From positions 46,584-110,583 of the forward strand of contig CAZTVG010000001.1 in assembly GCA_964617015.1 (NCBI GenBank): 64,000 nucleotides of DNA, read 5' to 3'. The translations under genes were made by a program, and so were the position numbers. Below are positions 7,965 to 28,285 of the stretch, piece after piece. A model generated the notes under the pieces. It saw nothing but the letters and a program-made list of their open reading frames with translations. It had not been told where the DNA came from and did not search any database. Source of the stretch: Candidatus Woesearchaeota archaeon (GTDB taxonomy: Archaea; Nanobdellota; Nanobdellia; Pacearchaeales; GW2011-AR1). How positions within the stretch are numbered: position 1 is the first letter of the stretch; every line of letters starts with the position of its first letter.

Positions 7965-8203
7965 TATATACTATAATTTTTAAAAATAAACTAAGATAAT
8001 GTAAATTATGTTTATATTTATCCTGAATTTGTAATTATTTCCATTTCCTCTTCAATTTTTATCCTAAATGGCCAGTTCAAATTGATATATTTTTCAGAAA
8101 GTTTCTATAACTCCCAGCCATCTGACTTTTAATAATACATACATAATAAGTATTAAAATCATAAATACATATATTTTTAAGTATTAATACATGTATAATA
8201 AGT

Positions 8204-11200
8204 ATGGAAAGGACTCGTTTAGCAAGGACTAGCATAAGCGAGCTTAAAAAAAGAATAATTCTGGCGCAAGAACGAAAATCAAAGATTACGCAATATCTTC
8301 AGGAACTCTGGGAAAAATACCAGACAGGAAAAATTTCCCGTGATTTCTATGTAGAAACAGCTCACAGACATTTCGACGGTAAAACCCTCAAAGAATGGGT
8401 TGAATATTATGACAATTACATAAACGAATGTGAAATATTAATTAAGAAACACAAAAAAGATCTTCTGAAAGGGCATTTTAGAACTTTTGTCTTCTCATTC
8501 ATCCTAATTATTGTTTTGCTTAGCGTGAGTCTATACACACAGCCAAGATTTGTTGGATTTTTAATCCAAGAACCAGTTCCTGTTTCAGAAATTGTAACAG
8601 ATGCAAATGCAACAATTACAACAACGCAACAACAAGCTATTCTCGGTCAGCCAGTAAAATGGACTAAAACTATTTCTTTAGACAAACCAACAAAAACAAA
8701 AATAAGATTACCGATAGAAGCCACAAATATATCTGTAAACAAAATATCATATTCAGAAGAAAATTTGGTGGAGGTTCTTCAAAACCAAACGAGTCCTTTC
8801 CAAGAAGAACCTCTTCCCTCTTCTGAAACAGAAAAACAAGAAGCATTGTTTAGCATAACAGGTCTTGTGACTGCAGAAGATGCAGGAATTCGAGAAGGCC
8901 TTTTATCTAGATTCTTCAGAAATCTAGGAAGAATTACAGGGCGAGCAATCTATGAACCAGAGGAAAAACTTGAAATTGAGATTAATGACACTGCAACAGA
9001 ATATGAAATTGAATATCAGACAGATGCACCATATGCAATTGAAGAACCTTTAACAACAGCCAAAGGCAAAAGAGTAAAAATTATCGGACCTGAAACAATT
9101 CATTATGAAAATGTTTTATCCTTTACAACACTTGATGAAAGTCTTAACATTAAAAATCCAAGAAATGTAAAAATTTTCTGGAGAGAAGAAAATAAATTCA
9201 TTTCTCCTACATCTATTCAAGATACAAACAACAACGGAATTTACGATTACATTGAATGGATTGCGCCTGTATTGTCTGAGCAGACTTTTGATATAATTGT
9301 TATAATAAAAGCAGAGCATCTTGACAGCAATAGAAACTTCGTAAGTGATATTTACGAAGAAGTTAAAGATTTAGATAATATCTGGTCAGAAGAAATTCCT
9401 TCAGAAGATTATGTAAGAGTTGTATTTGAGATTCCTTTGGATAATAAGAGAGATATTACAATTTATCCACGAGTTGTTTCAGGAAATCCAAAAATAGAAG
9501 TTTATGAATTCCAAGGAACAGAAATTATTGCAGAATTCACAAGTTTAAATTCAAATGAGTATAATAAAATCTTTTTAGATGGTTCAAGCGGAGCTGGTTT
9601 GGGAGATAAAATTCAAGACACTTTTGACTTGAAAATTCTCGACGGAAGTGTTGAGATTGACCATATAATTGATCCTTTCGAATCATTAACTGTTATTACA
9701 TGCACCATATCTGGTTGTAGTGTTACAAATTACAATGATAATACAACTTCAATAGGAGCAAGTATTAGTAAAAATAGTGAAGATCAGGTAAATATTTCTG
9801 CTACTTCAGATTTGGGAGGATTAGATACAATAAATAATGTAACTTTAGATTTTAGATGGACAAATGTGGTGAACTTAGATGGTCAATGGGGTATAACACC
9901 TCAATCACAAGATGGATTGACAAATTATTGTACTGCTATAGCAGTACCTCAAACAGACTTAGCTGAAGATGTATATACAGTAATAGATATATTTACAGGT
10001 TGTGTAGATACAAAAGCAGAGTTAGATGATTTAAGATTTAATATAAGGAATTCAGATGCAGGCCAGGGTCAAACTGGTGATGTCCTTTATGTTAATGTAA
10101 CAATAAATTTTACAGTAGTATCAGATACAGAACAACCAAAATGGCAGGAGAATACTACAAACAGCACAGAAGCAGGAACATTGATAAAACACAGTGTGAG
10201 ATGGACAGATGATACTGCCTTGGATGGTTTTATCTTTAGCTTTGACAATGGAACAGGAACTTTCGTCAATGATTCTTTTGTTTCAATGACTGGAACTAAT
10301 AATTATAGTAATGTTACTAAAGTAGTTAATTCAACAGTTGGTTCAACAATACAATGGATAGTCTATGCTAATGATTCTTCAAATAATTTTAACAATACAG
10401 ATACTTTTATTTATACTACGACATCAGCAAACGCAGCCCCAACAATTGATTTTGTCGAAGCAATACCTGGCCTAACCCCTAATGAAAGTTCCACAAATAC
10501 CACATCATTTAACTTCACTGCAACAGATACTGATGGATTTACAGACATAAATGTAAGTTCTGCACAGGGATTTTTCCAGAGAGCAGGGGAGACGACAAGA
10601 AGTGACCTATCCTGTGTTAACTGGAGTCAGTCTGGAAATGACGTTAACTTCACATGTACTATAGGTATGTTTTATTATGATGAAGCAGGCTCGTGGACCA
10701 TAAATGTGACTGTGAGAGACAATGCTGATGAAACTGCTGAAAATTCTTCAACAACATTTACCTATCTCACATTAACTGCAATGGTGATGTCTCCTACAGC
10801 TCTTGGCTGGGATACTATAAATTTGACTGATACAGACACTGGTTCAACCAGTGACCCAATTACTTTGAATAATACAGGTAATGCCGTGAACTTAAACATC
10901 AATATAACAGCATTTAATCTGCAGGGAAATACAACTCTGACAGAATATATTTTTGCAGAAAACTTCACTGTTGAAGATGCTTCAGAAGGCTGTACTGGAA
11001 CAGCTATGGTAAATGCAACTTCCACAAACGTGACTTCATCAATACTACAGAGAGGTAACAATACTTTAAATTATAATAATGCAACTTCGGGACAAGAGCA
11101 AATATTTTTCTGTCTGAAGGGGGTTCCTCAGGACATCAGCGCACAGGAATATTCTTCAATTGCATATGGTGCCTGGGAAATAAGAATCCTGTTGGTTGCA

Positions 11201-11788
11201 ATAATCCCTGCTGCAAGAAGAAAGAAAAAGAAGAAGGAAGAAGACAAGCTAATAGAATCTCTTGATTTGTTAGAATACTTACACATTGTGGATAAATTAA
11301 AAGAACAGTATGGATTCAGCAATGAAGAAATAGTCAAGACAATAATTGAAAAAGCAAGCAAGAAATATAATTTAGATAGAACAAAACTCTTAAGGACAAT
11401 AAAGGCAAGAGAGGGCATAGATATTCCGGTTACAATTTTCTCAAAAAAACTCGGAGCATTGGAGTCAATAGTAAAATACATGAAGGAAAATCTTGGAATG
11501 AATTATCGCGAAATCGCGAAAGAGCTCGGAAGAGATGAAAGAACAATCTGGACATCTTACAAAAAAGCAAATGAAAAACAAAAAGAGCCAATAAAGCCAA
11601 AAGAAACAAAAATAAACATACCATCATCAGTCTTTGAAAATAAAAAATTGACAATGCTTGAATCCATAATAATTTATTTGAAACAAAAAGGATTCAAATT
11701 CAGCGAGATGGAAAAATTGCTTGAAAGAGACCAGAGAAACATAGGAACAATTTATTCAAGAGCCATGAAAAAAATAAAAAACAAATAA
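8204..11788 (+). CDS. large two-pass membrane protein: cytoplasmic helical N-terminus, about 1000-aa sequon-rich ectodomain, C-terminal cytoplasmic tail with two sigma70-region-4-like HTH repeats
   Basis: 1194 aa. TM1 FRTFVFSFILIIVLLSVSLY. Second hydrophobic segment WEIRILLVAIIPAA followed by RRKKKKKEED. Tail repeats LESIVKYMKENLGMNYREIAKELGRDERTIWTSYKKA and LESIIIYLKQKGFKFSEMEKLLERDQRNIGTIYSRAMKKIK resemble sigma-70 r4 / ECF-type HTH. Confidence 0.55.
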   Translation: MERTRLARTSISELKKRIILAQERKSKITQYLQELWEKYQTGKISRDFYVETAHRHFDGKTLKEWVEYYDNYINECEILIKKHKKDLLKGHFRTFVFSFILIIVLLSVSLYTQPRFVGFLIQEPVPVSEIVTDANATITTTQQQAILGQPVKWTKTISLDKPTKTKIRLPIEATNISVNKISYSEENLVEVLQNQTSPFQEEPLPSSETEKQEALFSITGLVTAEDAGIREGLLSRFFRNLGRITGRAIYEPEEKLEIEINDTATEYEIEYQTDAPYAIEEPLTTAKGKRVKIIGPETIHYENVLSFTTLDESLNIKNPRNVKIFWREENKFISPTSIQDTNNNGIYDYIEWIAPVLSEQTFDIIVIIKAEHLDSNRNFVSDIYEEVKDLDNIWSEEIPSEDYVRVVFEIPLDNKRDITIYPRVVSGNPKIEVYEFQGTEIIAEFTSLNSNEYNKIFLDGSSGAGLGDKIQDTFDLKILDGSVEIDHIIDPFESLTVITCTISGCSVTNYNDNTTSIGASISKNSEDQVNISATSDLGGLDTINNVTLDFRWTNVVNLDGQWGITPQSQDGLTNYCTAIAVPQTDLAEDVYTVIDIFTGCVDTKAELDDLRFNIRNSDAGQGQTGDVLYVNVTINFTVVSDTEQPKWQENTTNSTEAGTLIKHSVRWTDDTALDGFIFSFDNGTGTFVNDSFVSMTGTNNYSNVTKVVNSTVGSTIQWIVYANDSSNNFNNTDTFIYTTTSANAAPTIDFVEAIPGLTPNESSTNTTSFNFTATDTDGFTDINVSSAQGFFQRAGETTRSDLSCVNWSQSGNDVNFTCTIGMFYYDEAGSWTINVTVRDNADETAENSSTTFTYLTLTAMVMSPTALGWDTINLTDTDTGSTSDPITLNNTGNAVNLNINITAFNLQGNTTLTEYIFAENFTVEDASEGCTGTAMVNATSTNVTSSILQRGNNTLNYNNATSGQEQIFFCLKGVPQDISAQEYSSIAYGAWEIRILLVAIIPAARRKKKKKEEDKLIESLDLLEYLHIVDKLKEQYGFSNEEIVKTIIEKASKKYNLDRTKLLRTIKAREGIDIPVTIFSKKLGALESIVKYMKENLGMNYREIAKELGRDERTIWTSYKKANEKQKEPIKPKETKINIPSSVFENKKLTMLESIIIYLKQKGFKFSEMEKLLERDQRNIGTIYSRAMKKIKNK

Positions 11789-11895: not shown

Positions 11896-12813
11896 ATGGT
11901 GAAAAGAGGTACAAAGGTGATTGTTTTTTTAGGACTCTTGATATTATTAATGGTTCCGTTGGTATCTGCAGGAATCTTTTCAGATTGGTGGGGTAAGATA
12001 ACAGGAAAATTAACCGAGGGCACAACCACGGTAAACATTACAATAGGAAACAATCCTCCTACAATTGACAGGGTTGAACCAATACCTAACATAGCTCCTA
12101 ATGAAGGGGGGTTTAATTCAACTACTTTTAATTTTACTGCGACAGACACTGACGGAGCTTCTAACATCAATTTGAGTAGTGCGCAGGGAAGGTTTCAGCT
12201 AACAGGAGAAACGACAAGAGTAAATTTATCATGCAGTGACTGGGCATCTGCTGGAAACGATGTTAATTTTACATGTACAATTGATATGTATTACTTTGAT
12301 AAAAATGATGCTTCATGGACAATAAATGTGACTGTAAGAGATAATAGCCAGGCAACTGCTGAAAATTCTTCTACATCATTCACTTACAACTTGCTTACAG
12401 CAATGGTTATGGCTCCGACAGCACTTGGCTGGCCTGAGGTAGGATTGACAGCTACAGATACAGGTGCCAATGATAATATTACTATAAATAATACAGGTAA
12501 TGATGTTGATCTAAATATTAATGTAACATCACTCGACCTTCAGGGAAATACAACACTGACACACTATATTTTTGCAGAAAACTTCACTGTTGAAAATACC
12601 TATCCTGGTTGTACTGGAACAGCTATGGTAAATGCAACTTCCACAAACGTGACTTCATCAATACTACAGAGAGGTAACAATACTTTAAATTATAATAATG
12701 CAACTTCAGGACAGGAAGAGATTTCCTTCTGTCTGAAGGGTGTTCCCCAGGATATTAGTTCACAGGAATATTCCTCAATAGCATTGGGTGCATGGACAAT
12801 TACTATTAACTAA
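11896..12813 (+). CDS. secreted paralog of the ectodomain C-terminal region of the 8204-11788 protein
   Basis: 305 aa with signal peptide. About 250 aa align with residues about 745-1000 of the upstream protein, including a roughly 100-nt stretch of perfect nucleotide identity. Confidence 0.6.
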   Translation: MVKRGTKVIVFLGLLILLMVPLVSAGIFSDWWGKITGKLTEGTTTVNITIGNNPPTIDRVEPIPNIAPNEGGFNSTTFNFTATDTDGASNINLSSAQGRFQLTGETTRVNLSCSDWASAGNDVNFTCTIDMYYFDKNDASWTINVTVRDNSQATAENSSTSFTYNLLTAMVMAPTALGWPEVGLTATDTGANDNITINNTGNDVDLNINVTSLDLQGNTTLTHYIFAENFTVENTYPGCTGTAMVNATSTNVTSSILQRGNNTLNYNNATSGQEEISFCLKGVPQDISSQEYSSIALGAWTITIN

Positions 12814-12818
12814 ATAAA

Positions 12819-13379
12819 ATGAGAAAAATGAATAAAAAAATAGGAATGATTGTTGGAGCAGTTGGATTATTGGTGATGATGAGTTTATTTGCAAGTGCAT
12901 TCGGGGTTTCAACTTCTTATTGGGACGAGAATCCACTAAGAATAGCTCCCGGAGAATCAATAACTGTTTCGCTGGGATTACAAAATGGCGGGGGTGGAAC
13001 TGAAGATATAACTCTAAGAGCAGAGCTTACAAATGACGGTGGAGGAATAGCGACACTGGTTGATGAAGATTTAGATTACTTTGTTCCTGTGGGAGGGGGT
13101 GTCGGAGTTCCCATAAGAATAGAACTTTCAGAAGATGCTGAGACAGGCATTACACATCAAATAACTGTTTCATTTACACAGGTTGCTTCTGGAGAAGGTG
13201 GTATGGTGCGTCTTACAGGGGGTGTCGTGAGTAATCTCCCTGTTGAAGTAGTTGGTGAAGAGGAAAGTGAATTATATACCCCTGAAGCTAAAAAAGGCCT
13301 TTCTGGTTTTTGGATGATTGTAATTGCTCTGGCTGTTGCACTGACAATTTTCCTTATTGCAAGAAGTAGAAAAGATTAA
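12819..13379 (+). CDS. small surface protein with signal peptide and C-terminal TM anchor
   Basis: 186 aa. Signal IGMIVGAVGLLVMMSLFASAFG, Gly-rich beta-like core, anchor FWMIVIALAVALTIFLIARSRKD. Confidence 0.5.
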   Translation: MRKMNKKIGMIVGAVGLLVMMSLFASAFGVSTSYWDENPLRIAPGESITVSLGLQNGGGGTEDITLRAELTNDGGGIATLVDEDLDYFVPVGGGVGVPIRIELSEDAETGITHQITVSFTQVASGEGGMVRLTGGVVSNLPVEVVGEEESELYTPEAKKGLSGFWMIVIALAVALTIFLIARSRKD

Positions 13380-13446
13380 GAAACAAATAATCATCAAATT
13401 TAAAATTCCTAATAAACTTTAAATAGATTATTTTATTGTTCTATTA

Positions 13447-15141
13447 ATGAAAAGATTGATATTTATTCTTTTATTAGGCATAGGTTTATTTTTTATATTA
13501 ATATGGGCTATAAATACAGAAACCACGACAGGAGATACAGCTACAGGAGAAGTGGTTACAACAGGGGAGATAACAGAGGCTAGTGTGACTATCACAATAG
13601 CTATTACTGGCGTTCCTTTTTTAACAATTATTAAACCATTAAATCAGACTTATTTTGAAAATGAAAGCCTTAGATTAAAGGTTGATACCAACACAAATGA
13701 TATGTGGTATAATCTGGATAATGGAGCTAATATAACCTTTACAGATGAGGTGCTTTTCAATACATCAGAAGGAGGGCATACAATTTATGTTTTTGCCAAT
13801 AATAGTTTTGGAACAACAACTAAAAACGTTACATTTACTGTCGATGGCAGCCTCTATGAAATTATTCATGAAAATTATAAAGATGCCAATAAAGGCGTCT
13901 CAACAAATTTCAGTGAATTTTCGTTTACAGAAATACAGAATTTAAGTGATATTGTTTTAGAAGATACCATTTATGGAAAGATTATTTTTAATGATGCCAT
14001 TAACGTGACAGATGATGCAAATACAACTTATAGTGAAACAGATTTAGATACCAACACAAATATTTCATTCAATAGGATTGAATTAGATTCCATTGCCTTG
14101 CCCAATTTCAATAAAAATGCCAACCTCTACCTTTACAATCTAACTTTTTCTAACCCAAGAATATTGAAAGATGGAGCGGTTTGCCCTTCTACAGTCTGCA
14201 CGCAGAACAGTTATTCAGGAGGCACTCTGAGTTTTAATGTAACAGGTTTCACTGTTTATTCTGCAGAAGAAACTCCTGAAGATGAACTTGTTCTTCCTCC
14301 ACCACCAGGAGGAGGGGGCGGAGGTCTGATTTTCACTACAAGTGTAGATGAAATAAGCATATCTCTGAAACAAGGGGATGTAAAAACAAAAGAGATAACA
14401 ATCAATAATCTAGGAAACAATAAACTTTCGTTTTCAGTAACTTCTGATATAGGAGAATTTGTAAAAATAAATCAAGAAAACTTCCAAATTGGGCCAAAAG
14501 AGAAGAAAACAATAATTATTGATTTCATAGCCAGAGAAAATACTATTCCGGAATTATATTTAGGAAATTTATTTATTGAAGCATTGGGAGTAAAAAAAAT
14601 AATCCCAATCACAATAGAAGTAGAATCCAAGGTAGCTCTTTTTGACATCTCAATAGAAATACCTGAAAGATTTTTAGATATCTCTCCTGGAGAAGAATTG
14701 CTCGTGAAAATAGATTTGCATAATTTAGTAAGTGAGACAGAAACAAATATAGATTTAGAATACATAATCAAGGATATAAATGGAAATATAATGCTTACTG
14801 AGGGGGAGAGAATTTCTGTAGAGGGAAGAAAAACGTTTGAAAAACTAATAAAAATTCCAGAAGATATCGGATTTGGAAGATATGTTCTATATGTAAGATT
14901 AATTTATGACAACACTGTAGCAAGTTCAAGCGCCTGGTTCAACGTTGAAAAAAAATTTAATTGGTTTGAAACCAGAAAAATAGAAAAAGTTTTATTGATA
15001 ATCTTTACTTTAGTAGTAATATTTATAATAATTTATAAAAACAAAAGAATTCAAAGATTTTTACATAATATGGAAAAATTATTTTTAAGAAAAGCATTTA
15101 TAAAAAAGGAATCACTAACAAAAAAGAGATCATTCCCCTAA
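13447..15141 (+). CDS. secreted/type I membrane surface protein
   Basis: 564 aa. Signal peptide, N-x-S/T-rich domains, [10 protein letters not shown] linker, C-terminal [17 protein letters not shown] plus basic tail. Confidence 0.5.
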
Positions 15142-19773: not shown

Positions 19774-22700
19774 CTATCTGCATTCAAGGAATAAAGAGTA
19801 TATCTCATCCTTAAAACCAATTACATCTTCAACATACCTAATATTTCCTTTACTGCAATCAGTATTCCATCCATTATATCCTCTCAAAGCTCTTGTCCAG
19901 CCACTATAAGTTTTTCCATTGCAAACATACTCCTTAGAAGAAGAAACATGATTATTAATTAATAAATTAATTCCAAAATTCACATTTTCATCAAAATTTA
20001 ATTTTTCTCCATGCACATTTTTATTTATCTGCATAATTCCCAGACTCGTTCCTTCATCTCCCGCAAGGATTTCTGCTTTGTTATTTTCACAATAAAGAGG
20101 GTTATTGTTTTCATATGGACCTTGACAGTGCCTTATTCTGCTTTCAGTGTATGCGACCTGCAATACAAGACATTCAAAAGAGCTTGCTCCTGTATCTGCT
20201 TTGACAGAGGCATCATCAATTCCTCTTTGCTGTTTTATTTCAACTGCAAGCTCAATTATTTTTTTCCCTAAAACCTGCTGGCACTCTGTGGATGTTGAAC
20301 AAGTAAGTTTAATTTCTTCTCTAGACTCTCCAGCCTCAATATATTCTCTAGGACCTTCAAATGTAGAATCTATATCAAAAATAATTTCAGCGCCATCGTA
20401 AAATTGCTTTCCTTCCAAATTTTTAATTAAATCAATAAATTCAGATTCAGGTTTGGTTTTTTCGAAATCTCTTACGCTTTCTGTTTCAGGAACAAGCACC
20501 CAACTTATTATATCAAAAGACCATGTCCATTTTTTTAAATTATCATCAAATTTGAAATACAACTCCTCACCCGTTATAATGTCTTCAGTCACAATAAACA
20601 ATTTCTTATCAGTAAATTTAATCCTTTCTGTATATAATTCAGCATCATCAAAAAAACCACCTTCATCATTGAATCTAGTTCTTTCAATTAACAATCTTAA
20701 ACCGTCAGAATAAGTTTTGTCTTTTAACTGAATCAAAAACTTCTTTTCTTTTTCAGGAGCATTTATATAAGCTTCATCCACATTTAACCACGAATCTAGA
20801 TTATTTTTATTACTAGATACATGCCATTCTGTTCCAGAATAAGTATAGTAGAAATCCTGCCCAAAAACCACTCCATCTTCAAACAAAAATATGGGATAAC
20901 TAAGAAAACCGCTGATTAATCCTGCTTTAATTGCTTCTTCTCCTGTTATGCTTCCTTCTTGAAGTTTCTCTGCCAATGTTTTTTCTCCTTCTTCAATTTT
21001 ATCAATTTCTGGTTTGAGTTTTTCAAATGCAATAATAGCAAGGTCTGCATAAACATCTCCTCTCAAAAGTGTCAAATAACCCTTCTGACTGCCAAAGAAA
21101 ACCCTATCAATATTATCACTAATCAAATTTATTTTATTGAAGTTATCATCTTCAGAATCAATTTCCTCCAAAAGACTCTCGAAGTCTTCAACAAAACCAC
21201 CTTCTTTTTGAAGTGTTTCAATGTAATTAGGTGCAACTTTTCCAAGCACTTCGTTTTCAAGATTTGTATTTCTTAGAGTACTTTTTACACTGTCTGTGTC
21301 AAGCCAGCACTGAATCTTTGTGTTTCCGCAATTTCCAACAGGTTGCCATCTTCCCTTTTCTGTATTCGCAAGTACATCTGTTCCCAAACCTGGATTGGCT
21401 GTTGCACATATTCTTGTGATTCCGCGATTGTAAATAGCAGGATTTGTGACTTCTGTTACTCCAGCCTGCAAGTTAGGAGAAAGTAAACTGTAAATACTTG
21501 GAGTCCCTGAAACACATGCTGTTTCAGAAGTTATATCTTTCTGAGCAGCCTGAGAAGCGACATATTGTTCTGTGATATAATTTACTCCAAAAGATGTTGT
21601 AACTTGCTTAAAGCCACACTCTTCCTGACCATTGACGATTATACACATCTCCCGATAACCAGAAGGAGCTGTAATATCTCTTGTTTCAGTGAAAAAGTCT
21701 CCTGCCTTGATAAACCCTTGAGCAATTATTCTTCTTACACCAGTATCCTGGTAGAAAGAACCTCCTGTTCCTCTAAGATAAACTTGGTAATACGCTGGGA
21801 AATCTTTTCCTGCATAGATGTGGTAAAATACCTTGTATTGTGAGACAGGTGGAACAGTGGCTGTGGTGAAGGGAATCTCGTCAAATCTTCCATAAAATTG
21901 TGCAGGAGAATCAGGGGTTGTAAGAGCGTCAAAGAAATTTCCTCCAGAAGGCCCTGCAATAGAAACAAAATTCTTGCAGACAGCTGTTCCTACATCTTCT
22001 ACAGACCTTGCCTTGAATGCCCGGAAAGAGTTTGCAGCATAATACTGTGTAAAGTATCCTGTGGATTGTGAGGCAGTATCCCATGCATTTGCAACTCCAA
22101 GATACTCTCCTCCTCCACGAACATTTTGTCCAAGCACTGTTCCAAGTCCTTTGGTAAGCGCTATTTTTGCCAGTGGAATAGACTGTCTCCAGAAGAAATC
22201 ACACATGTATATGCTATTAATTTCATCACAAATTCCAGTTGTTTGCCCTGTATCTAAACTTGCCTGCAAACACTGCTGATAAGAATCAAAAACAGTCAAC
22301 AAGCCATCTATGCCTGCGTGAACTCCTGAAAGGCAGATAGGAATTTTTACCTCTGGAAAGTTTGGTAGGCACAAGGCCAAACTGCCTGCTATTCCAGACT
22401 GTATAACATCTTTAACAGGATATGCTCCGCCTAAATCACATCTTGAACTTGGGCATACAACAGGATCACAAACATTAAACAATAAATTACAATCTGTGGG
22501 AGACATAAAATCCTGGCATTGTATGTCTGGAATACCTATTGCAGGTTCTCCCACTTGAATTGACCGGCCAAGTATTTGTACTTTCCTAACTCCATCATGA
22601 TATCCTCTTTCAGCATCTGAAATTGCCCTTACTGCCTTAATTGCCAATGAAGATGATTTGCTTTTATCTAATCCTGGAAACTGATTGTAAGGTTGATTTG

Positions 22701-25700
22701 TCCCTGGATTTATCATTTCACAAGTATCATCACCTATTCCAGAATCAAACTCTGCTCTTCCATTTCTTCCCACATTGCAAAGCCAGAAACTTCGAACTAC
22801 TCCTGAAGCATCATAAGCTCTTATTGCCCCACCTATTGGTGTAGTTGGTTTAACATAAGCATACCAACCTTCTTTAACATTAAATGGAACAATTGCGGGA
22901 AATCCTGCGTAAATGCCTACCTCATAATATCTTACTCTTGGATTTACAAATTGATTTTGATAAGTTGTTGAATCATATCTTCTTAAAGCAAGTCCTAGAG
23001 GATTTATGTTATCTTCTTCTACAGGAGTCAAACTACCATCATTATTTATCCTGTAAGTTTGAGTTATTATGAAATTATTATTTAAAGTTAAAAGATATTC
23101 TTTTCCATCAGATTCGTCAAAAAATTTCTGGACAAATTCTTTATCTTCTATAGAATCACTCTTATAATTATTCCTTGCCCTTACTTCCTCAAATGTTTTA
23201 ACTTCAGTAATTGCATATTCCTTTAGTTTTTTAGTAGAGCCTATTATAACTGGACCACCATATTCACCTTCAAGAGTTTGTCTTTTGACATCTCTCTGTG
23301 TATTAACATAAATATCTGCAAGTTCTTTTTTGACTTCTGCCCGGGCAATTGCCCTTATTCTTTCATTTTCAGAATTCACAAGTCTTGAATTCAGCTGAAG
23401 ATTTCTTGCCTGTGTTAAAAATGAAGTGTCTGAATTTATTCTGGCAATTGCATCTGAAACAAGAACATCCTGATTTCCTATTTTAATTTTATCATTTTCA
23501 AAAACCCCTTTCAAATTATCACTTAATTCCTTGTTGAAATCACTATCAACATATTCTTTCAATACTTTTTCTGTATCTTCTCCAGCTTTCCCTAATTTTT
23601 CACGAATAGTTTTGAATTCCTGGTTTTGTTTTTCCATTCCTCCAAAGATAATGTCAATATCTGCATCTATTGCATCTGAATTATCAAGAAGACATGAATC
23701 CACGCTTCCATATGTTGCCATGGACTCTTTTTTATTGCAGAATTCAAACCACCCAGAGTCACCCCTCATGACATTCTGCCTTGCAATCCCCTTTCCTCCA
23801 AGATTTGAAAAGAAATTCTTTATAGTCAACGTGGTTCCGACCCCAAGACATGCAGCCTTTAGACTACTGACAACTGTTCCGAGCTTCCCATTTATATCCT
23901 GCCATTTTTCTAAAGTTTTATTTAAAGATTCAATTCTTTCTCTTGTTTTTTCAGGGGATAACTGAATTCCTCTTTTTTCAATTCCTATCTTAAATCTAAA
24001 TGGAACACTTGTTCTTGCGTAATTTATTTTTGGATTTATTGAGACTTTTGCCAGTTTCTTTAGGTTAACTTCAAGAAGTGTAAATTTATATTTGCTTCCA
24101 AAACTTTCCGGGAAGTTTTTGTTTAATCTTTTAGTAGAAGTTCCCAGAATAAAAGCTTTTGTAGCTTCTGTTGTGCTTCTTTCTATCTGAAGATTAACTC
24201 TTACTGTAGCTGTTGCCTCCCTGTCTAAATCATCTCTGCGCAAATCCAAAAGCTGGATGAATTCGTCTTTGCTTAAATGATTAATGCTATTCTTCCTAAG
24301 AGTTATTTTATAAGGGCTTCCTTCCGGAGGACTGACTAATATTTCTGCCGAAAACTCGTCAAGAGATGGCTCTCTTATTCTGTCAAAAACAATTCTGTAG
24401 GTTCGTCCATCAATCAAAACGTCTCTGACTGCACTTTCAGTGCTTGAAAGCTTGTAAGCATTTCTACAAATATCAGTCACAACAGAATCAGGATAACTAT
24501 CCCTGAATTCATCACATAACTCAATAGCTGTTCTTTTTTGTCCTGTTAACCACGCAAGTTCTATTTTTGAAAATAAAGCCGCTTCACCAAGAGTTTCTGT
24601 TAGTTCCCCAAAAGATTCTTCCTGGGGAAAACTTGCAATAACAGTATCATAATCTCTTTCTGCTTTCCCATAAAAATTACTGACATCTGCTGACAAGGAT
24701 GAAATGTCTGAATCCTGTGCTTCTGCAAAACCAACAATAGCAAGAGTTTTTCCAAAAACCTTTTCTGACTCTCTGAAAGAAACAGATTCAAATGATTGTC
24801 CTGAAAGAAATCTGAGCCCTTTTTCTACACTTGAAAAAGCACCCTTAAACCCTTCCTTGATTAACTGATTCAAGTTGTCTATGTTTGAAGAAGGGAATCT
24901 GTTTACAAATCCACCAATAGAATTTAATACATTTTCTGTTAAAGCTTCTCCCTGGCCAGGCATGGAAACAGTAACAATAAATAAATTTTGTTCAGCTGTG
25001 CCAATGCCTTCTGTTCCAACATATGCGAGATAAACTGATTTCTCAGTTTCCTTACCTTTTTCAATCTCCTGGTAAAGTCTGTCCCCAACACTAACTTCAA
25101 TTGGTTTTCCTTCTATTTTCAGGTTTATTTTCGGATTGATTGTCATATCAAAAACACCCCTTCTCACATCTTCCCTGCAGCTAATCCTGACTCCCTCATT
25201 TACACCGTTTTTAATTATTCTTGTTACCTGACACTTGTTTTCAAGGAATCTTTCTCCTTCCTTGACCTCGACAACATCTTCATTTATTCTTAATTTTGCC
25301 CTTGTGTTTGGATTTTCCAAACCATTTAGCCTAACCTGCATTGACCCAAGACAATAATTAAAGCCAGGCATGAAAATTTCCCTTGATGTTTCGCCTACAT
25401 TAAGATTCACAGTCTGAAGTTTTCTTTTTACACCTGAAGTCCCAGAGCCATAGGTCTCTCTGTCAGAATAAATTGAAATTGATGCACCTAGATTATCAAT
25501 TGAATCTGCTCTCAGATACCCCTTACCTCTCCAAAAGCCATACTGACGGAAATTTTCCTCCCACTGCTCATCACTTAATTCAGGAAGGTAAAAATTAGCT
25601 CTTCCCACACCAAAAGCATTTTTTACATCATACCTTATTGTTGCTGTTAAATTTCCCAGAATAAATTCAGGCATTGCAGATTCATTTGCCTGCCTTCTCA

Positions 25701-26184
25701 GGACTATGACCGCATAACCTATGTTATTCAAAACAGGCTGGTTAAGCTGGGCACCATATCTCCCCAAGGCAGCTCTTGCAGGCACATAAGTCACTCCAAC
25801 AACTTCTTTAGGTTTTGGTCCTGCAAAAGAAAAAATAATATTATTAATGGCTTCAATTTTTATCAAAGGATTTAATTGTGTTGCAACTATTGGACAAAAA
25901 ACAGGAACGTTCTGATCTTCAAGGAGGTCGCTTCTTACAACAGATGGCTCACAACCCAAAGGGTTAACCTGAAGAATAAAATCCTGTCCTGCTTCACACA
26001 TGCTTCTGTCAAATAAAGGAAACTGCAAATCTCCCTGGAAAGGAACAAAAGTCGGGTAATAAGCAACATTGGAACGTGAGTAAGTATTGCTAGCACCACT
26101 GAAAATTTGCGATGAAATTAAAGATAATGCAAATACAATTCCAATTAATAATAAAATTCCGATTACTATTTGTTTTTTCTTCAT
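19774..26184 (-). CDS. giant secreted protein (2136 aa) with N-terminal signal/TM, central Cys-rich region and C-terminal lytic transglycosylase (SLT/lysozyme-like) domain
   Basis: N-terminus MKKKQIVIGILLLIGIVFALSLI. C-terminal 130 aa carry SLT family motifs AYTES (catalytic Glu-Ser), GIMQIN (GLMQ motif) and ALRGYNGW (AYNxG motif). Confidence 0.7.
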   Translation of the reverse strand: MKKKQIVIGILLLIGIVFALSLISSQIFSGASNTYSRSNVAYYPTFVPFQGDLQFPLFDRSMCEAGQDFILQVNPLGCEPSVVRSDLLEDQNVPVFCPIVATQLNPLIKIEAINNIIFSFAGPKPKEVVGVTYVPARAALGRYGAQLNQPVLNNIGYAVIVLRRQANESAMPEFILGNLTATIRYDVKNAFGVGRANFYLPELSDEQWEENFRQYGFWRGKGYLRADSIDNLGASISIYSDRETYGSGTSGVKRKLQTVNLNVGETSREIFMPGFNYCLGSMQVRLNGLENPNTRAKLRINEDVVEVKEGERFLENKCQVTRIIKNGVNEGVRISCREDVRRGVFDMTINPKINLKIEGKPIEVSVGDRLYQEIEKGKETEKSVYLAYVGTEGIGTAEQNLFIVTVSMPGQGEALTENVLNSIGGFVNRFPSSNIDNLNQLIKEGFKGAFSSVEKGLRFLSGQSFESVSFRESEKVFGKTLAIVGFAEAQDSDISSLSADVSNFYGKAERDYDTVIASFPQEESFGELTETLGEAALFSKIELAWLTGQKRTAIELCDEFRDSYPDSVVTDICRNAYKLSSTESAVRDVLIDGRTYRIVFDRIREPSLDEFSAEILVSPPEGSPYKITLRKNSINHLSKDEFIQLLDLRRDDLDREATATVRVNLQIERSTTEATKAFILGTSTKRLNKNFPESFGSKYKFTLLEVNLKKLAKVSINPKINYARTSVPFRFKIGIEKRGIQLSPEKTRERIESLNKTLEKWQDINGKLGTVVSSLKAACLGVGTTLTIKNFFSNLGGKGIARQNVMRGDSGWFEFCNKKESMATYGSVDSCLLDNSDAIDADIDIIFGGMEKQNQEFKTIREKLGKAGEDTEKVLKEYVDSDFNKELSDNLKGVFENDKIKIGNQDVLVSDAIARINSDTSFLTQARNLQLNSRLVNSENERIRAIARAEVKKELADIYVNTQRDVKRQTLEGEYGGPVIIGSTKKLKEYAITEVKTFEEVRARNNYKSDSIEDKEFVQKFFDESDGKEYLLTLNNNFIITQTYRINNDGSLTPVEEDNINPLGLALRRYDSTTYQNQFVNPRVRYYEVGIYAGFPAIVPFNVKEGWYAYVKPTTPIGGAIRAYDASGVVRSFWLCNVGRNGRAEFDSGIGDDTCEMINPGTNQPYNQFPGLDKSKSSSLAIKAVRAISDAERGYHDGVRKVQILGRSIQVGEPAIGIPDIQCQDFMSPTDCNLLFNVCDPVVCPSSRCDLGGAYPVKDVIQSGIAGSLALCLPNFPEVKIPICLSGVHAGIDGLLTVFDSYQQCLQASLDTGQTTGICDEINSIYMCDFFWRQSIPLAKIALTKGLGTVLGQNVRGGGEYLGVANAWDTASQSTGYFTQYYAANSFRAFKARSVEDVGTAVCKNFVSIAGPSGGNFFDALTTPDSPAQFYGRFDEIPFTTATVPPVSQYKVFYHIYAGKDFPAYYQVYLRGTGGSFYQDTGVRRIIAQGFIKAGDFFTETRDITAPSGYREMCIIVNGQEECGFKQVTTSFGVNYITEQYVASQAAQKDITSETACVSGTPSIYSLLSPNLQAGVTEVTNPAIYNRGITRICATANPGLGTDVLANTEKGRWQPVGNCGNTKIQCWLDTDSVKSTLRNTNLENEVLGKVAPNYIETLQKEGGFVEDFESLLEEIDSEDDNFNKINLISDNIDRVFFGSQKGYLTLLRGDVYADLAIIAFEKLKPEIDKIEEGEKTLAEKLQEGSITGEEAIKAGLISGFLSYPIFLFEDGVVFGQDFYYTYSGTEWHVSSNKNNLDSWLNVDEAYINAPEKEKKFLIQLKDKTYSDGLRLLIERTRFNDEGGFFDDAELYTERIKFTDKKLFIVTEDIITGEELYFKFDDNLKKWTWSFDIISWVLVPETESVRDFEKTKPESEFIDLIKNLEGKQFYDGAEIIFDIDSTFEGPREYIEAGESREEIKLTCSTSTECQQVLGKKIIELAVEIKQQRGIDDASVKADTGASSFECLVLQVAYTESRIRHCQGPYENNNPLYCENNKAEILAGDEGTSLGIMQINKNVHGEKLNFDENVNFGINLLINNHVSSSKEYVCNGKTYSGWTRALRGYNGWNTDCSKGNIRYVEDVIGFKDEIYSLFLECR

Positions 26185-26461: not shown

Positions 26462-28285
26462 TCATCTAAAATTTATATCAAGTCCTTTAGTTTCAAACAA
26501 TAAGTAGTTGGTTTCAAGTTTTTCAAGAGTGTCTGGTTTAGAAAGACTTTCTGCATTTATTTCAATAGTGCCGGAGTTTATCAATTCAGACTCTAAAATG
26601 AAATAATTTTGTTTTCCGCCTCCTGCTAAAGCATTTGAAATTAACTGCTCTGGGACTTCAATATCAAAACACCTCTCCTTTGTCACGCCAAACACCCCAA
26701 GGATTCCTGATTTTGGAACTTTTACGCACTGCTCTGTTGTTGTCGCTCCTATATTTATTGAGGAACTCCTGTAAATATAAACCTGAATCTCATACTGATC
26801 TTCGCCCAATTCAACTGTTCTTTGTTCAGGATAAGCAATTGTTTTTGTTGAATCCGATGAAATAAAATGAATTATTGAATTTCCGCTGTAACTTGCTCCA
26901 TCAAGTTTCAAATCAATATTTTTCGTGTAAAGCTTGTCAAGAATAATATCTATGTTTCCAGAAGAAACAGTAGAAAATAAATATCTTGCATCTTTAAATC
27001 CGTCGGCTCTCGCATGGACATAACCATTCACACATTGCGGAAAATTTTCTCTGAGTGCTCCAAAACTTGTCTCTCCTATATTGCATTTATTTCCTAAACA
27101 TTCATAAGAAATTTCTGCATCAACAGATCTTCCTTGTCTGTCTCTTGTGTTCACCTGAATTTCTGCATTTTTATATAAGCAAAGCTCTGGAACAACATTT
27201 TCAATCGCAGTTGCATTCAAAGACTCACGTGGATTATTATTTTGTAAAACAACAGCCATCGGAAACTGGAAAATCTCATCTCCATCAGAAACCTGTACTA
27301 AAACAGGATATTTTATACTGTAAACAAAATGATAAGGAACATAACAAAATCCAATAATTCCCAAACCAGGCTGGTTTCCCACAGGATTTGAAATCAAAAT
27401 GATTCCTTCAGAAGGCGAAACTTCAAAACTATTCGGCCAGTTTCGAGAATTCAGGAACCTTACTTCTTCTTCCACAGGCAAATCAACCTTAAAGTAATCA
27501 TCACTATCTACTCCTGTTTCAATTGCCAGTGTATTTGCCTCAATAGCTTCCTGAAGCTCATCAAAAACCTTATTGGCATTCCAGACTAAAGGACTGCATG
27601 TAAGTTCAACGCCGTCAACAGGAGCATATGATCTCAGTGTATCAACAGCATATTCTTCAAGAAACAGAGTTTCCTGTTCATGTTCATAAACTTTTACTGC
27701 AGAATCATATAAATTTCCTAGCTTTGATTTGACCACAATCTTATGATTTTTTACAGTGGCAGATTCATTGCCAAAAACTATATTCAAATTCATACTCAAA
27801 TCAATCTCAACCTCATCATCTTTAATATTAGAGCTTGCCTCGGGTTCTGCCAGAGAAATTTCAAATCCCTGTTCATAATAATCATTAAAATTGCAGTCAT
27901 TAATCCTTTCTTCAATGAACTCTTCAAGCTGAGTTTCCATCTCCTTTTTAGTGGGAACCTGTTCTTTTTGGATGTTGTTTCCAGAAACATAATACCAGTA
28001 AGGAATAGGATTTCCCAAAAAATTCAGTTGAGAGGAAAAAGGCATATATTGGGAACCTGGTTCAAATTCCGGCAGAAAAATATAACCTCCCTGGGATTCC
28101 AGAATGCCTGCCCCCACAGATGTATCTTCTTCAAGACAAGCCAAGAAAGCTGTATAAACAGGTTCAATATTTGCAGGTAAATCAATACTTATTAAAGAAC
28201 CTCTTAAAATAAAATAAGAAAGAACTCCTGCGAGAATAAGTATGGCAATTATAATAAATATGGTCACCTGCCCTTTATTTTTCAT
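26462..28285 (-). CDS. 607-aa exported protein with type IV pilin-like (class III) signal peptide
   Basis: N-terminus MKNKGQVTIFIIIAILILAGVLSYF (K-G-Q then hydrophobic helix, as in archaeal prepilins). Large Cys-containing extracellular domain. Confidence 0.55.
   Translation of the reverse strand: MKNKGQVTIFIIIAILILAGVLSYFILRGSLISIDLPANIEPVYTAFLACLEEDTSVGAGILESQGGYIFLPEFEPGSQYMPFSSQLNFLGNPIPYWYYVSGNNIQKEQVPTKKEMETQLEEFIEERINDCNFNDYYEQGFEISLAEPEASSNIKDDEVEIDLSMNLNIVFGNESATVKNHKIVVKSKLGNLYDSAVKVYEHEQETLFLEEYAVDTLRSYAPVDGVELTCSPLVWNANKVFDELQEAIEANTLAIETGVDSDDYFKVDLPVEEEVRFLNSRNWPNSFEVSPSEGIILISNPVGNQPGLGIIGFCYVPYHFVYSIKYPVLVQVSDGDEIFQFPMAVVLQNNNPRESLNATAIENVVPELCLYKNAEIQVNTRDRQGRSVDAEISYECLGNKCNIGETSFGALRENFPQCVNGYVHARADGFKDARYLFSTVSSGNIDIILDKLYTKNIDLKLDGASYSGNSIIHFISSDSTKTIAYPEQRTVELGEDQYEIQVYIYRSSSINIGATTTEQCVKVPKSGILGVFGVTKERCFDIEVPEQLISNALAGGGKQNYFILESELINSGTIEINAESLSKPDTLEKLETNYLLFETKGLDINFR

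What the first reader, a model, noticed from the sequence alone, without database searches (positions are those of the whole stretch)
8204..11788. Membrane protein coupling a roughly 1000-aa extracellular domain to cytoplasmic tandem sigma70-r4-like HTH repeats
The topology inferred from hydrophobic segments and the positive-inside rule is: cytoplasmic coiled N-terminus, TM1, huge glycosylated ectodomain, TM2 (WEIRILLVAIIPAA followed by RRKKKKKEED). The tail carries two about 50-aa repeats of the form L-E-S-I-x-x-Y-[ML]-K-x-x-G-x-x-x-x-E-[IM]-x-K-x-L-x-R-D-x-R-x-I, resembling sigma-70 region 4 / ECF HTH. That architecture would be a membrane-tethered one-component transcription regulator (ToxR/CadC-like logic) or a membrane-tethered anti-sigma-like module. 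I am not aware of this combination in archaea. The paralog at 11896-12813 ends exactly where the TM2 and HTH tail begin, so the tail was either added to or lost from an ectodomain cassette.
Basis: partly seen in the sequence, partly recalled or inferred. Interest (0 to 1): 0.6.

Follow-up and report, generated by a model that had tools for sequence, protein, structure and literature searches.

The report
Giant surface protein with DNA-binding tail
A 1194-residue surface protein of a tiny DPANN archaeon ends in a pair of DNA-binding domains, an arrangement shared by thousands of relatives, and these domains most likely switch off the protein's own gene by binding a conserved triple repeat in its promoter.

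Summary
The ORF (8204-11788, +, 1194 aa) is real. The fusion is not an assembly artefact: a related contig keeps the ectodomain end and the tail in one frame, 47 of the 120 best ectodomain homologues carry the tail, and a profile of the tail finds 2316 protein clusters, almost all DPANN archaea.

The tail holds two 46%-identical helix-turn-helix domains of the sigma-70 region 4 / LuxR type. Pfam, AlphaFold2 and Foldseek agree on this.

"TM2" is weak. It is only 10-14 hydrophobic residues, is not modelled as a helix, and starts with the last beta strand of the ectodomain. It is followed by RRKKKKK and occurs only in fused proteins, so I read it as a short stop-transfer anchor.

New here:
- In other genomes the same HTH pair is a free cytoplasmic protein. 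Its gene always abuts a gene for a membrane-anchored or secreted surface protein, often a giant one.
- A 17-20 bp pseudo-palindrome (ATACATA-N-ATAATAAGTA) occurs three times at 26-bp phase in the gene's promoter. The copies cover the TATA box and the leaderless start, and the layout is conserved in 25 loci, mostly from different species.

Best reading: a membrane-tethered, single-chain HTH "dimer" that autoregulates a giant surface protein. It is a new variant of a known kind and I found no description of it in the literature. DNA binding and topology are inferred, not shown.

The parts
8134..8153 (+). Operator-like copy 1: AATACATACATAATAAGTAT, about -70 to -51 from the ATG
   Evidence: Exact match to the pattern. 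There are only two exact copies in the 64-kb window, against 0.24 matches expected by chance at up to 3 mismatches. It forms direct repeat D1 with copy 3, 52 bp start to start. The position is conserved in 25 loci.
8165..8181 (+). Middle, degenerate copy that contains the TATA box: ATACATA at 8165-8171 and TTTTTAAG at 8174-8181, which starts at -30
   Evidence: The consensus of 25 loci is ATACATA-N-ATTTATAAG, in 26-bp phase with copies 1 and 3. Among the window's genes, 15 of the 29 TATA-like matches found in the 60 nt upstream of a start codon begin 26-30 nt before it, most at -29, which implies leaderless mRNAs.
8186..8205 (+). Operator-like copy 3: AATACATGTATAATAAGTAT. It fills the gap between the TATA box and the start, and its last two bases are the AT of the ATG
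   Evidence: In 24 of 25 loci the motif core starts 15 or 16 nt before the ATG.
8204..11788 (+). Gene for the 1194-aa protein
   Evidence: Identical to P0059.
8204..8476 (+). N-terminal cytoplasmic helical domain ('type A': GKIS..Y.E....DGKT..EW..YYD.YI..CE..IKKH), aa 1-91
   Evidence: AF2 models helices 2-40, 46-53 and 62-109 at pLDDT 87-94. No Pfam family matches. The domain is conserved in the family. Among the hits, 25 of 50 type-A proteins carry the tail and 0 of 23 type-B proteins do, Fisher p = 8e-6.
8477..8533 (+). TM1, a signal-anchor helix, aa 92-110
   Evidence: KD19 2.36 and Hessa sum -1.65. It lies within the AF2 helix 62-109.
8534..11173 (+). Ectodomain: an acidic, sequon-rich array of beta-sandwich domains, aa 111-990
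   Evidence: 35 sequons against 15.5 expected. Foldseek matches arrays of Ig, FN3 and MG (alpha-2-macroglobulin-type) domains and adhesins. There are 265 homologues, and the named ones are mostly from Nanoarchaeota and Pacearchaeota.
10421..11188 (+). Last two-domain cassette, duplicated as the downstream paralogue, aa 740-995
   Evidence: 73% identity over 257 aa.
11174..11215 (+). Short hydrophobic junction WEIRILLVAIIPAA, aa 991-1004. Its first five residues are the last beta strand of the ectodomain. Proposed stop-transfer segment
   Evidence: In the family the distance from the conserved W to the basic cluster has a median of 13.5 residues.
11216..11236 (+). Polybasic clamp RRKKKKK, aa 1005-1011
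   Evidence: Found after the hydrophobic run in most fused homologues examined. Absent from the tail-less relatives whose C-termini are complete and from most free HTH proteins.
11237..11413 (+). Helical linker domain, aa 1012-1070, also present at the N-terminus of the free HTH-pair proteins
   Evidence: AF2 helices 1013-1021, 1024-1036, 1040-1055 and 1059-1069. Alignment A1.
11423..11578 (+). HTH repeat 1, aa 1074-1125, recognition helix RDERTIWTSY
   Evidence: Local HMM 94 bits, Pfam PF08281, pLDDT 96-97, Foldseek.
11618..11773 (+). HTH repeat 2, aa 1139-1190, recognition helix RDQRNIGTIY
   Evidence: Local HMM 79 bits.
11896..12813 (+). Secreted 305-aa paralogue of the last cassette. It has a signal peptide and no anchor or tail
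   Evidence: The same gene follows the giant gene in L001, L008 and L009 and belongs to the cluster in L002 and L077.
12819..15141 (+). Two further conserved cluster genes, 186 aa and 564 aa, each with a signal peptide and a normal C-terminal TM anchor
   Evidence: Counterparts of similar size sit in the same order in L002, L008, L009, L077 and L091.

Best explanation
The gene encodes a giant, N-terminally anchored, glycosylated surface protein. Its last 190 or so residues stay in the cytoplasm, held by a very short hydrophobic stop-transfer segment and a polybasic clamp. They form a single-chain pair of sigma-4/LuxR-type HTH domains.

I propose that this pair binds a pseudo-palindromic site, TAC(A/T)TA-N5-TAAGTA, whose half-sites are 11 bp apart, one for each HTH. 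The site occurs three times at 26-bp phase across the gene's own leaderless promoter: upstream of the TATA box, on it, and between it and the start codon. Occupancy would block TBP, TFB and RNA polymerase. The gene would then be repressed by its own finished, membrane-inserted product, which would set the surface density of the protein.

In other DPANN lineages the same HTH pair is a separate cytoplasmic protein. Its gene sits next to the giant gene and has the same kind of operators.

Shown: the ORF, the conserved fusion, the HTH fold, the gene linkage, and the conserved promoter repeats and their positions.
Inferred: that the tail binds these repeats, that it represses, that the junction crosses the membrane, and any input from the ectodomain or the N-terminal cytoplasmic domain.
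For: The fusion is real and under selection:
- L001 reads through the junction in frame.
- 47 of 120 ectodomain homologues carry 2-4 repeats.
- All 108 large proteins with at least 2 repeats carry them within 17 residues of the C-terminus.
- The tail profile finds 2316 clusters. 324 matching stretches were confirmed in a scan of one genome per species (GTDB), and nearly all of the 80 kept are labelled DPANN.

HTH fold. The nearest archaeal structure, EnfR (8hno), is described as a transcription factor with a DNA-binding HTH and a putative repressor (PMC10570040).

Cytoplasmic tail:
- Free homologues have no signal peptide or TM.
- The tail has 0 sequons while the ectodomain has twice the expected number. 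Family-wide the figures are 4.46 per 100 aa in the ectodomain (2.16 expected) and 0.54 in the tail (0.63 expected).
- The hydrophobic run with its KR cluster occurs only at fusion junctions.

Gene linkage: all 13 free HTH-pair genes examined abut or overlap a co-directional gene for a membrane-anchored or secreted protein, often a giant one.

Operators:
- The window has only two exact copies, both at this promoter.
- In 1.07 Mb of related loci there are 67 matches with at most 1 mismatch, against 1-6 in shuffles.
- 23 of 36 complete fused genes have a pair at the 5' end, against 9 of 3080 control windows.
- The layout is conserved in 25 loci.
- The TATA box sits where most TATA-like elements of the window's genes sit.
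- A tail-less type-B giant gene from the same genome as L009 has no motif.

Helices track the sites:
- Recognition helices are nearly invariant, as is the motif.
- Where both helices are RD[DE]RT (L081, L004) the sites are palindromic, ACTTA-N5-TAAGT.
- Where repeat 1 is degenerate (L007) only the single half-site TACTTA recurs.
- In L002, where the repeat order is swapped, the motif is inverted.
Against: - There is no direct evidence of DNA binding. The link between motif and helix rests on a few lineages, and L089 does not fit a simple code.
- L091 keeps the operators but has no HTH gene within 7.8 kb. The motif could therefore belong to the type-A giant gene rather than to the HTH, or be served in trans.
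- Each repeat resembles a BRE plus TATA unit (BRE is the TFB-recognition element next to the TATA box), so the array could be a set of promoter elements.
- The membrane-crossing segment is far shorter than a normal TM. AF2 models no helix there, and the Hessa sum is +5.3 for 19 residues.
- P0073 lacks the segment altogether.
- 13 of 36 fused genes lack a pair at the canonical spacing.
Confidence: 0.55

Rival explanations
1. Anti-sigma-like sequestration and release. The conserved N-terminal cytoplasmic domain of the giant protein holds the HTH pair inactive at the membrane. The pair is either free or tethered through TM2. A signal at the ectodomain, such as host contact, shedding or intramembrane proteolysis at the proline-containing short segment, releases it to act on the promoter, possibly as an activator.
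For: - The gene order and overlap (HTH gene first, then a single-pass N-in/C-out membrane protein) mirror ECF sigma/anti-sigma operons, which I know from the literature rather than from a test here.
- The tail occurs only with the type-A N-terminal domain, 25 of 50 against 0 of 23.
- The promoter carries conserved repeats, as an autoregulated promoter would.
- The marginal, proline-containing junction could be a cleavage site.
Against: - The N-terminal domain matches no anti-sigma family.
- No contact between the N-terminal domain and the tail could be read from the AF2 output.
- No S2P or rhomboid protease is among the window's ORFs that were scanned.
- Sites on the TATA box and the start favour repression by bound protein.
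- This model overlaps with the main model rather than excluding it.
Confidence: 0.2
2. The promoter repeats are bound by another factor or are tandem BRE/TATA-like promoter units. The HTH tail does something else, for example anchoring the chromosome or the transcribed gene to the membrane, or binding a protein partner.
For: - L091 has the repeats without a nearby HTH gene.
- Each repeat has a TATA-like core, ATAATAAG.
- Near-invariant recognition helices across thousands of paralogues are unusual for specific regulators and would also fit a common, non-regulatory ligand.
Against: - The repeats occur at promoters of HTH-pair operons whatever the gene order. In L004 none of the genes called downstream of the HTH gene is a type-A giant, yet the repeats are there.
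- Half-site symmetry follows the make-up of the two helices in L081, L004 and L007.
- The motif is absent from the rest of the 64-kb window.
Confidence: 0.15
3. The junction does not stop translocation. The basic HTH tail is extracellular, at the far end of an N-terminally anchored stalk, and binds external or host DNA, or is delivered into the host cell.
For: - The hydrophobic segment is too short for a standard TM and is not modelled as a helix.
- The C-terminus of an N-anchored array of beta-sandwich domains could lie far from the cell's own membrane.
- DPANN archaea depend on hosts (general knowledge).
Against: - Free orthologues lack any export signal.
- The tail has no sequon enrichment, unlike the ectodomain.
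- Seven consecutive K/R straight after the hydrophobic run is a classic cytoplasmic-retention signal.
- The operators lie in the organism's own genome.
Confidence: 0.06
4. The fusion is an artefact of assembly, a frameshift or gene calling, and the tail is really a separate gene.
For: - In L008 an in-frame TAA separates the tail. In L009 the gene is split.
- A gene caller started P0001 at the junction.
Against: - P0001's start is an effect of the contig end, and the frame continues upstream.
- Dozens of independent assemblies at 30-60% identity keep one ORF.
Confidence: 0.02

Closest known systems
ToxR / CadC / TcpP-type membrane-integrated one-component regulators (bacteria)
   Same: One polypeptide combines an extracytoplasmic domain, a membrane crossing and a cytoplasmic DNA-binding domain that acts on promoters while tethered.
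   Different: Those proteins have an N-terminal OmpR-type winged helix, a normal TM and a small periplasmic sensor. Here the DNA-binding module is C-terminal, a tandem sigma-4/LuxR-type pair. The crossing is a segment of 10-14 residues, there is a second (N-terminal) anchor, and the ectodomain is a giant adhesin-like array. I found no homology. This comparison rests on my knowledge of those families.
ECF sigma factor / single-pass anti-sigma factor pairs (bacteria)
   Same: The HTH has a region 4-type fold. The HTH gene lies directly upstream of, and overlaps, a gene for an N-in single-pass membrane protein with a roughly 90-aa cytoplasmic helical domain. The promoter carries a conserved motif, as an autoregulated promoter would.
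   Different: Archaea have no sigma factors. There is no sigma-2 domain but two region 4-like domains. The N-terminal domain matches no anti-sigma family. NCBIfam sigma models score far below their cut-offs.
ArnR / ArnR1, membrane-bound transcription factors of Sulfolobus acidocaldarius (PMC6396743)
   Same: They are archaeal, membrane-bound, and regulate genes for cell-surface structures.
   Different: As I recall their architecture, they have an N-terminal HTH and C-terminal TM helices and no large ectodomain. They are crenarchaeal. I did not compare the sequences here.
Tfx / EnfR family of archaeal regulators (EnfR structure 8hno, PMC10570040)
   Same: This is the closest solved archaeal HTH: 0.6 A rmsd and 36% identity over 45 residues. 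EnfR is described as a transcription factor with a DNA-binding HTH and a putative repressor.
   Different: Those proteins have a single HTH plus their own C-terminal domain, and are soluble dimers. NCBIfam tfx scores 15 bits against a cut-off of 60.25, and EnfR 16.9 against 260.
SPEARE-type giant surface proteins of Nanohaloarchaeota (recalled from the literature, not checked here)
   Same: They are giant DPANN surface proteins that also combine adhesion-like parts with a nucleic-acid-related domain.
   Different: Different domains and a different lineage, with no HTH pair. I tested no homology.

Membership tests
Sigma-70 region 4 / LuxR-GerE-type HTH (Pfam PF08281 Sigma70_r4_2) | Profile match above the gathering score | tested here: met
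   The tail alone scores 31.0 bits against 25.7. The full protein scores 24.0, just below. Many homologues carry a precomputed PF08281 hit.
Sigma-70 region 4 / LuxR-GerE-type HTH (Pfam PF08281 Sigma70_r4_2) | Helix-turn-helix fold that superposes on solved region 4 or LuxR domains | tested here: met
   pLDDT is 96-97. The rmsd is 0.6-0.8 A over 43-45 columns to 5fgm, 3vep, 5vxn and 8hno. Foldseek E-values are weak (0.05-0.8) because the domain is small.
Bacterial sigma-70 / ECF sigma factor | Region 2 domain plus region 4, scoring above the family cut-off | tested here: not met
   TIGR02937 scores 20.4 bits against 42.9. No region 2 match appears in Pfam or NCBIfam. The organism is archaeal: TFIIB, tRNA intron endonuclease and RadA are in the window.
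Anti-sigma factor (N-in, single-pass) | Recognisable anti-sigma domain at the cytoplasmic N-terminus | tested here: not met
   No Pfam family matches aa 1-92 at E below 0.02. Only the topology is analogous.
ToxR/CadC-like membrane one-component regulator | Cytoplasmic OmpR-type winged-helix DNA-binding domain at the N-terminus | tested here: not met
   The DNA-binding module is C-terminal and of the sigma-4 type.
ToxR/CadC-like membrane one-component regulator | A transmembrane helix joins the sensor and the DNA-binding domain | tested here: inconclusive
   A conserved hydrophobic run of 10-14 residues plus a polybasic cluster occurs only at fusion junctions. However KD19 is 1.64, the Hessa sum is +5.3 for 19 residues, and AF2 models no helix.
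ToxR/CadC-like membrane one-component regulator | The ectodomain senses a signal that changes DNA binding | not testable with these tools
   This needs experiments.
Autoregulated transcription factor | Conserved, repeated binding-site-like motif in its own promoter that follows the factor across genomes | tested here: met
   Actual binding was not tested.
Archaeosortase / PGF-CTERM-type sorting signal | Signature motif, TM helix and basic cluster at the extreme C-terminus | tested here: not met
   About 183 residues follow the basic cluster, and there is no PGF-like motif.
Tfx / EnfR family | Family model above its cut-off, including the C-terminal domain | tested here: not met
   tfx scores 15 against 60.25 and EnfR 16.9 against 260. 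In the PDB profile search only the 39-residue HTH stretch of EnfR aligns meaningfully.

The most novel reading that the evidence does not exclude
The very short, proline-containing membrane segment is a deliberate weak link. The giant adhesin and its own DNA-binding tail would then form a contact or force sensor. Pulling on the ectodomain when the cell attaches to its host, or cleavage at the junction, would change whether the tail can occupy the three operators. Attachment would then directly reprogram expression of the surface protein across DPANN archaea, with the conserved N-terminal cytoplasmic domain acting as an anti-sigma-like partner.
Probability: 0.12. Interest if true: 0.9.

Novelty: new variant of a known kind. 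Interest (0 to 1): 0.66.

Why it matters
Very little is known about gene regulation in DPANN archaea, and their giant surface proteins are the prime candidates for host attachment. Here a lineage-wide family (over 2300 clusters at 50% identity) links those proteins, by fusion or by adjacent genes, to one dedicated DNA-binding module. It comes with a sharply defined candidate operator and promoter layout.

That makes a clear hypothesis directly testable with a 190-aa protein fragment and an 80-bp DNA: feedback control of surface-protein density by a membrane-tethered, single-chain HTH dimer.

It also offers:
- a natural series of fused, split and deleted forms for studying how a soluble regulator becomes membrane-tethered;
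- an extreme case of a minimal stop-transfer segment.

Tried and rejected
- Assembly or frameshift artefact: rejected.
- Programmed frameshift at the lysine run: looked at by eye and dropped. The longest A run is 5, and there is no X XXY YYZ heptamer.
- Internal start for a separate tail product: there is no ATG before aa 1093, and I did not pursue it.
- Sortase-type sorting signal: rejected because about 183 residues follow the basic cluster.
- Looking up loci with the N-terminal domain alignment failed because the alignment is too poorly conserved. I used the tail alignment instead.
- The full-length AF2 model was meant to test contact between the N-terminal domain and the tail, and packing of TM1 against TM2. 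The tool returns no contacts or predicted aligned error, so this remains open.
- The bacterial sigma-70 promoter scan is uninformative for an archaeon.
- My first regular expression for the repeats was too strict, and I replaced it with a local HMM.
- Literature searches for a prior description found none.
- No S2P or rhomboid protease is among the window's ORFs that were scanned.
- A simple recognition code (RT helix to TAAGTA, RN helix to TACATA) fits L081, L004, L007 and the main group, but not L089 or L084b.

Full report
**Observation**

The ORF at 8204-11788 (+) is present and encodes 1194 aa. An identical protein is on public record, P0059, on a 118,555-bp contig. The window is archaeal and AT-rich. 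It carries TFIIB, tRNA-intron endonuclease, ribosomal protein S8e, a RadA gene with an intein, SRP54 and FtsY. Homologues that carry a taxon name come mostly from Nanoarchaeota, Pacearchaeota and Woesearchaeota, which are DPANN archaea.

Residues 92-110 form a strong hydrophobic helix (Kyte-Doolittle 19-residue mean, KD19, 2.36). It lies inside a long helix in the AlphaFold2 (AF2) model.

All 35 N-x-S/T sequons lie between residues 135 and 959, where composition predicts 15.5. That stretch is acidic, while the N-terminus and the tail are basic and have no sequons.

The ectodomain is an array of beta-sandwich domains that resembles Ig, FN3 and alpha-2-macroglobulin-type (MG) arrays and adhesins.

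**The tail**

- The two repeats are aa 1074-1125 and 1139-1190, 46% identical.
- The tail alone passes the Pfam Sigma70_r4_2 threshold, 31.0 bits against 25.7.
- AF2 models both repeats at pLDDT 96-97, each as a short strand plus three helices.
- They superpose on SigR, SigD and SigE region 4, on the LuxR-type domain of RcsB, and on the archaeal factor EnfR, at 0.6-0.8 A over about 45 residues. EnfR is described as a transcription factor with a DNA-binding HTH and a putative repressor (PMC10570040).
- There is no region 2 domain, and NCBIfam sigma, Tfx and EnfR models all score far below their cut-offs.

So the fold is of the region 4 / LuxR type, but the protein is neither a sigma factor nor a member of a named family.

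**Is the fusion real?**

Yes.

- P0001, a 96%-identical protein that seemed to start at the junction, starts there only because its contig ends nearby. On that contig, which is 85.6% identical in DNA, the ectodomain end, the hydrophobic segment and the tail share one frame.
- A local HMM of the repeat finds two to four repeats in 47 of the 120 best ectodomain homologues.
- In all 108 large proteins with at least two repeats, the repeats lie within 17 residues of the C-terminus.
- An exhaustive profile search finds 2316 clusters (50% identity) at E <= 1e-3 and 1319 at E <= 1e-30. Many are 1000-5900 aa long with the tail at the end.
- A scan of one genome per species found 324 confirmed matching stretches. 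Among the 80 kept, 36 complete fused ORFs of 1200-3400 aa could be read.

**The supposed TM2**

This is the weak part of the observation.

- The conserved tryptophan that starts WEIRI is followed by only 12-16 residues (median 13.5) before the K/R cluster. A charged residue usually sits at W+3, as with the Arg of WEIRI, so the uncharged run has a median of 8 residues.
- KD19 is 1.64 here and 1.14 as the family median.
- A position-independent sum on the Hessa scale is +5.3 for 19 residues and favourable (-0.65) only for ILLVAIIPAA. TM1 scores -1.65 and the C-terminal anchors of neighbouring genes -0.8 to -6.4.
- AF2 puts E992-L996 in the last beta strand of the final domain and leaves 995-1024 as low-confidence coil.
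- Tail-less relatives and the downstream paralogue stop right after that strand.

On the other side:

- The hydrophobic run with its polybasic cluster occurs only where a tail is fused.
- Free homologues of the tail have no signal peptide or TM and must be cytoplasmic.
- Family-wide, the ectodomain has twice the expected number of sequons (4.46 against 2.16 per 100 aa), while the tail has the expected number (0.54 against 0.63).

I therefore read the junction as an unusually short stop-transfer segment clamped by seven basic residues. This is inferred, not shown.

**Gene linkage**

In Nanoarchaeia contig L002 the same gene cluster is present but split. A 199-aa free HTH-pair gene (P0047) overlaps the start of a 1520-aa giant gene. 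That giant protein has the same N-terminal cytoplasmic domain and TM1 and ends at the terminal strand, with no junction segment and no tail. The secreted paralogue and the two smaller cluster genes lie just upstream.

The same pattern holds elsewhere. The HTH-pair gene lies directly upstream or downstream, usually overlapping, and co-directional with a gene for a membrane-anchored or secreted, usually sequon-rich and often giant protein. This is so in L004, L006, L007, L077, L078, L081, L084 (twice), L086, L087 and L089, which makes 13 of 13 examined.

Three loci show how the arrangement changes:

- L008 is syntenic with the window and has an in-frame TAA about 25 codons after the polybasic cluster.
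- L009 splits the giant gene upstream of the last cassette.
- L091 has lost the junction and the tail, apparently by recombination between the giant gene's last cassette and the paralogue.

Among the homologues, the tail occurs only with the 'type A' N-terminal cytoplasmic domain: 25 of 50, against 0 of 23 with a different 'type B' N-terminus, Fisher p = 8e-6.

**Promoter**

The 240-bp region upstream of the gene holds a 20-bp direct repeat at 8134-8153 and 8186-8205. These are the only exact copies in the window, against 0.24 matches expected by chance at up to 3 mismatches.

In related loci the core ACATNNATAATAAGTA occurs 67 times with at most 1 mismatch in 1.07 Mb, against 1-6 times in shuffles. 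A pair 45-60 bp apart lies at the 5' end of 23 of 36 complete fused genes, against 9 of 3080 control windows.

Aligning 25 loci, mostly from different species, gives three copies at 26-bp phase:
- ATACATA-N-ATAATAAGTA;
- a degenerate middle copy, ATACATA-N-ATTTATAAG, which contains the TATA box;
- a third copy that ends at or one base before the ATG.

Among the window's genes, 15 of the 29 TATA-like matches found in the 60 nt upstream of a start codon begin 26-30 nt before it, most at -29. This implies leaderless mRNAs, and this gene's TATA box sits at the same place. The third copy therefore fills exactly the interval between the TATA box and the transcription start, and the middle copy overlaps the TATA box and the adjacent TFB-recognition element (BRE). 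These are positions typical of archaeal repressors (my knowledge).

A type-B, tail-less giant gene from the same genome as L009 has neither motif nor HTH gene nearby.

**Fit between protein and site**

The motif is a pseudo-palindrome, TAC(A/T)TA-N5-TAAGTA, with half-sites 11 bp apart. That spacing suits two HTH domains joined by a 13-residue linker sitting in successive major grooves.

The two repeats are distinct and each is conserved. Repeat 1 has R[DN][DE]RTIW and repeat 2 has RDQRNIW.

- Where both repeats are RD[DE]RT (L081, L004) the sites are true palindromes, ACTTA-N5-TAAGT.
- Where repeat 1's helix is degenerate (L007) only the half-site TACTTA recurs, four times.
- In L002, where the order of the two types is swapped, the motif is inverted.
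- L089, which also has the swapped order, and L084b do not fit a simple code.

This is suggestive covariation from a handful of lineages, not proof.

**Mechanism proposed**

The protein would insert with its N-terminus in the cytoplasm. The ectodomain would be translocated and glycosylated. The short junction and its basic clamp would keep the last 190 or so residues inside. The tandem HTH would act as a covalent dimer, occupy the three sites and shut off its own leaderless promoter.

Because the DNA-binding part is made last and is membrane-tethered, repression would report completed, inserted molecules. The cells are small (general knowledge), so the promoter is never far from the membrane.

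The conserved N-terminal domain may modulate this. The operon layout and the topology resemble ECF sigma/anti-sigma pairs, but there is no sequence evidence for that relationship.

Rival readings are given with their weights in the rival-explanations section: release by proteolysis, a different factor at the repeats, an extracellular tail, and artefact.

**Novelty**

Members are deposited under generic names such as 'sigma-70 region 4 domain-containing protein' and 'sigma24 family protein'. No NCBIfam model passes its cut-off, and in Pfam only the generic Sigma70_r4_2 HTH model does.

Full-text searches found no description of the architecture or of the promoter repeats. Membrane-tethered regulators are known in bacteria, and ArnR/ArnR1 are known in archaea. 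I therefore rate this a new variant of a known kind, notable for its scale in DPANN archaea and for the clear, testable operator.

Noticed in passing
L008 5850-6090 (syntenic locus, GCA_964357045.1): An in-frame TAA about 25 codons after the polybasic cluster splits the tail from the giant protein, and a GTG follows shortly after. This could be natural gene fission, a recent nonsense mutation, a sequencing error or readthrough.
   Followed up: partly
L091 4780-4860 (GCA_900218215.1): A type-A giant gene ends like the secreted paralogue (AYGAWAVAIIT*) and is followed directly by the 183-aa and 575-aa cluster genes. The junction, the tail and the separate paralogue gene are gone, but the promoter repeats remain. 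This looks like recombination between the tandem cassettes.
   Followed up: partly
hits such as P0092, P0109, P0117 and P0146; locus L090: A second class of giant homologues has a different short cytoplasmic N-terminus (M.YK.YI.KNGK.YGPY.Y.S.KV.GKVIS.YLG, then a TM). They never carry the tail. L090 has no promoter repeats.
   Followed up: partly
window, upstream of many genes (for example 1846, 11896, 13447, 15876, 46168, 47888, 48670, 52786-55278): A TATA-like element (TTTAAAA or TTTATAA) starts 26-30 nt before the start codon, most often at -29, at about 15 of the 45 genes checked. This implies mostly leaderless transcripts in this genome.
   Followed up: partly
window 52786-55278 (-): The RadA/Rad51 gene is interrupted by an intein with a LAGLIDADG homing-endonuclease domain.
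   Followed up: no
window 28858-29898 (+) and 30023-30976 (+): A free-standing LAGLIDADG endonuclease ORF overlaps the start of tRNA-Val (29888-29960). Beyond the tRNA lies a SMODS/nucleotidyltransferase-domain ORF, which could be defence-related.
   Followed up: no
window 19774-26184 (-) and 26462-28285 (-): Two more large ORFs, 2136 aa and 607 aa, have no Pfam match. They have no HTH tail and no promoter repeat.
   Followed up: partly
L077 6650-6850: Six copies of the operator-like motif, in a 32-bp tandem array, precede a free HTH-pair gene that overlaps a 1080-aa type-A giant gene.
   Followed up: partly
L018 and L062 (record titles): Two loci with typical tail-bearing giant genes are labelled 'Bacillota bacterium' and 'bacterium'. 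They are probably mis-binned DPANN contigs.
   Followed up: no
P0002, P0004, P0005, P0028, P0145, P0149; L036, L048, L060: Some family members carry four HTH repeats, which is the R1-R2 unit duplicated as a block. This would be two DNA-binding units per chain, matching the multiple operators.
   Followed up: partly
P0073 (1502 aa, Pacearchaeota): This fused member goes straight from '...SQQSYSSS' to 'KKKKG...', with no terminal strand and no hydrophobic segment. I cannot say whether it is a real variant or an error.
   Followed up: no
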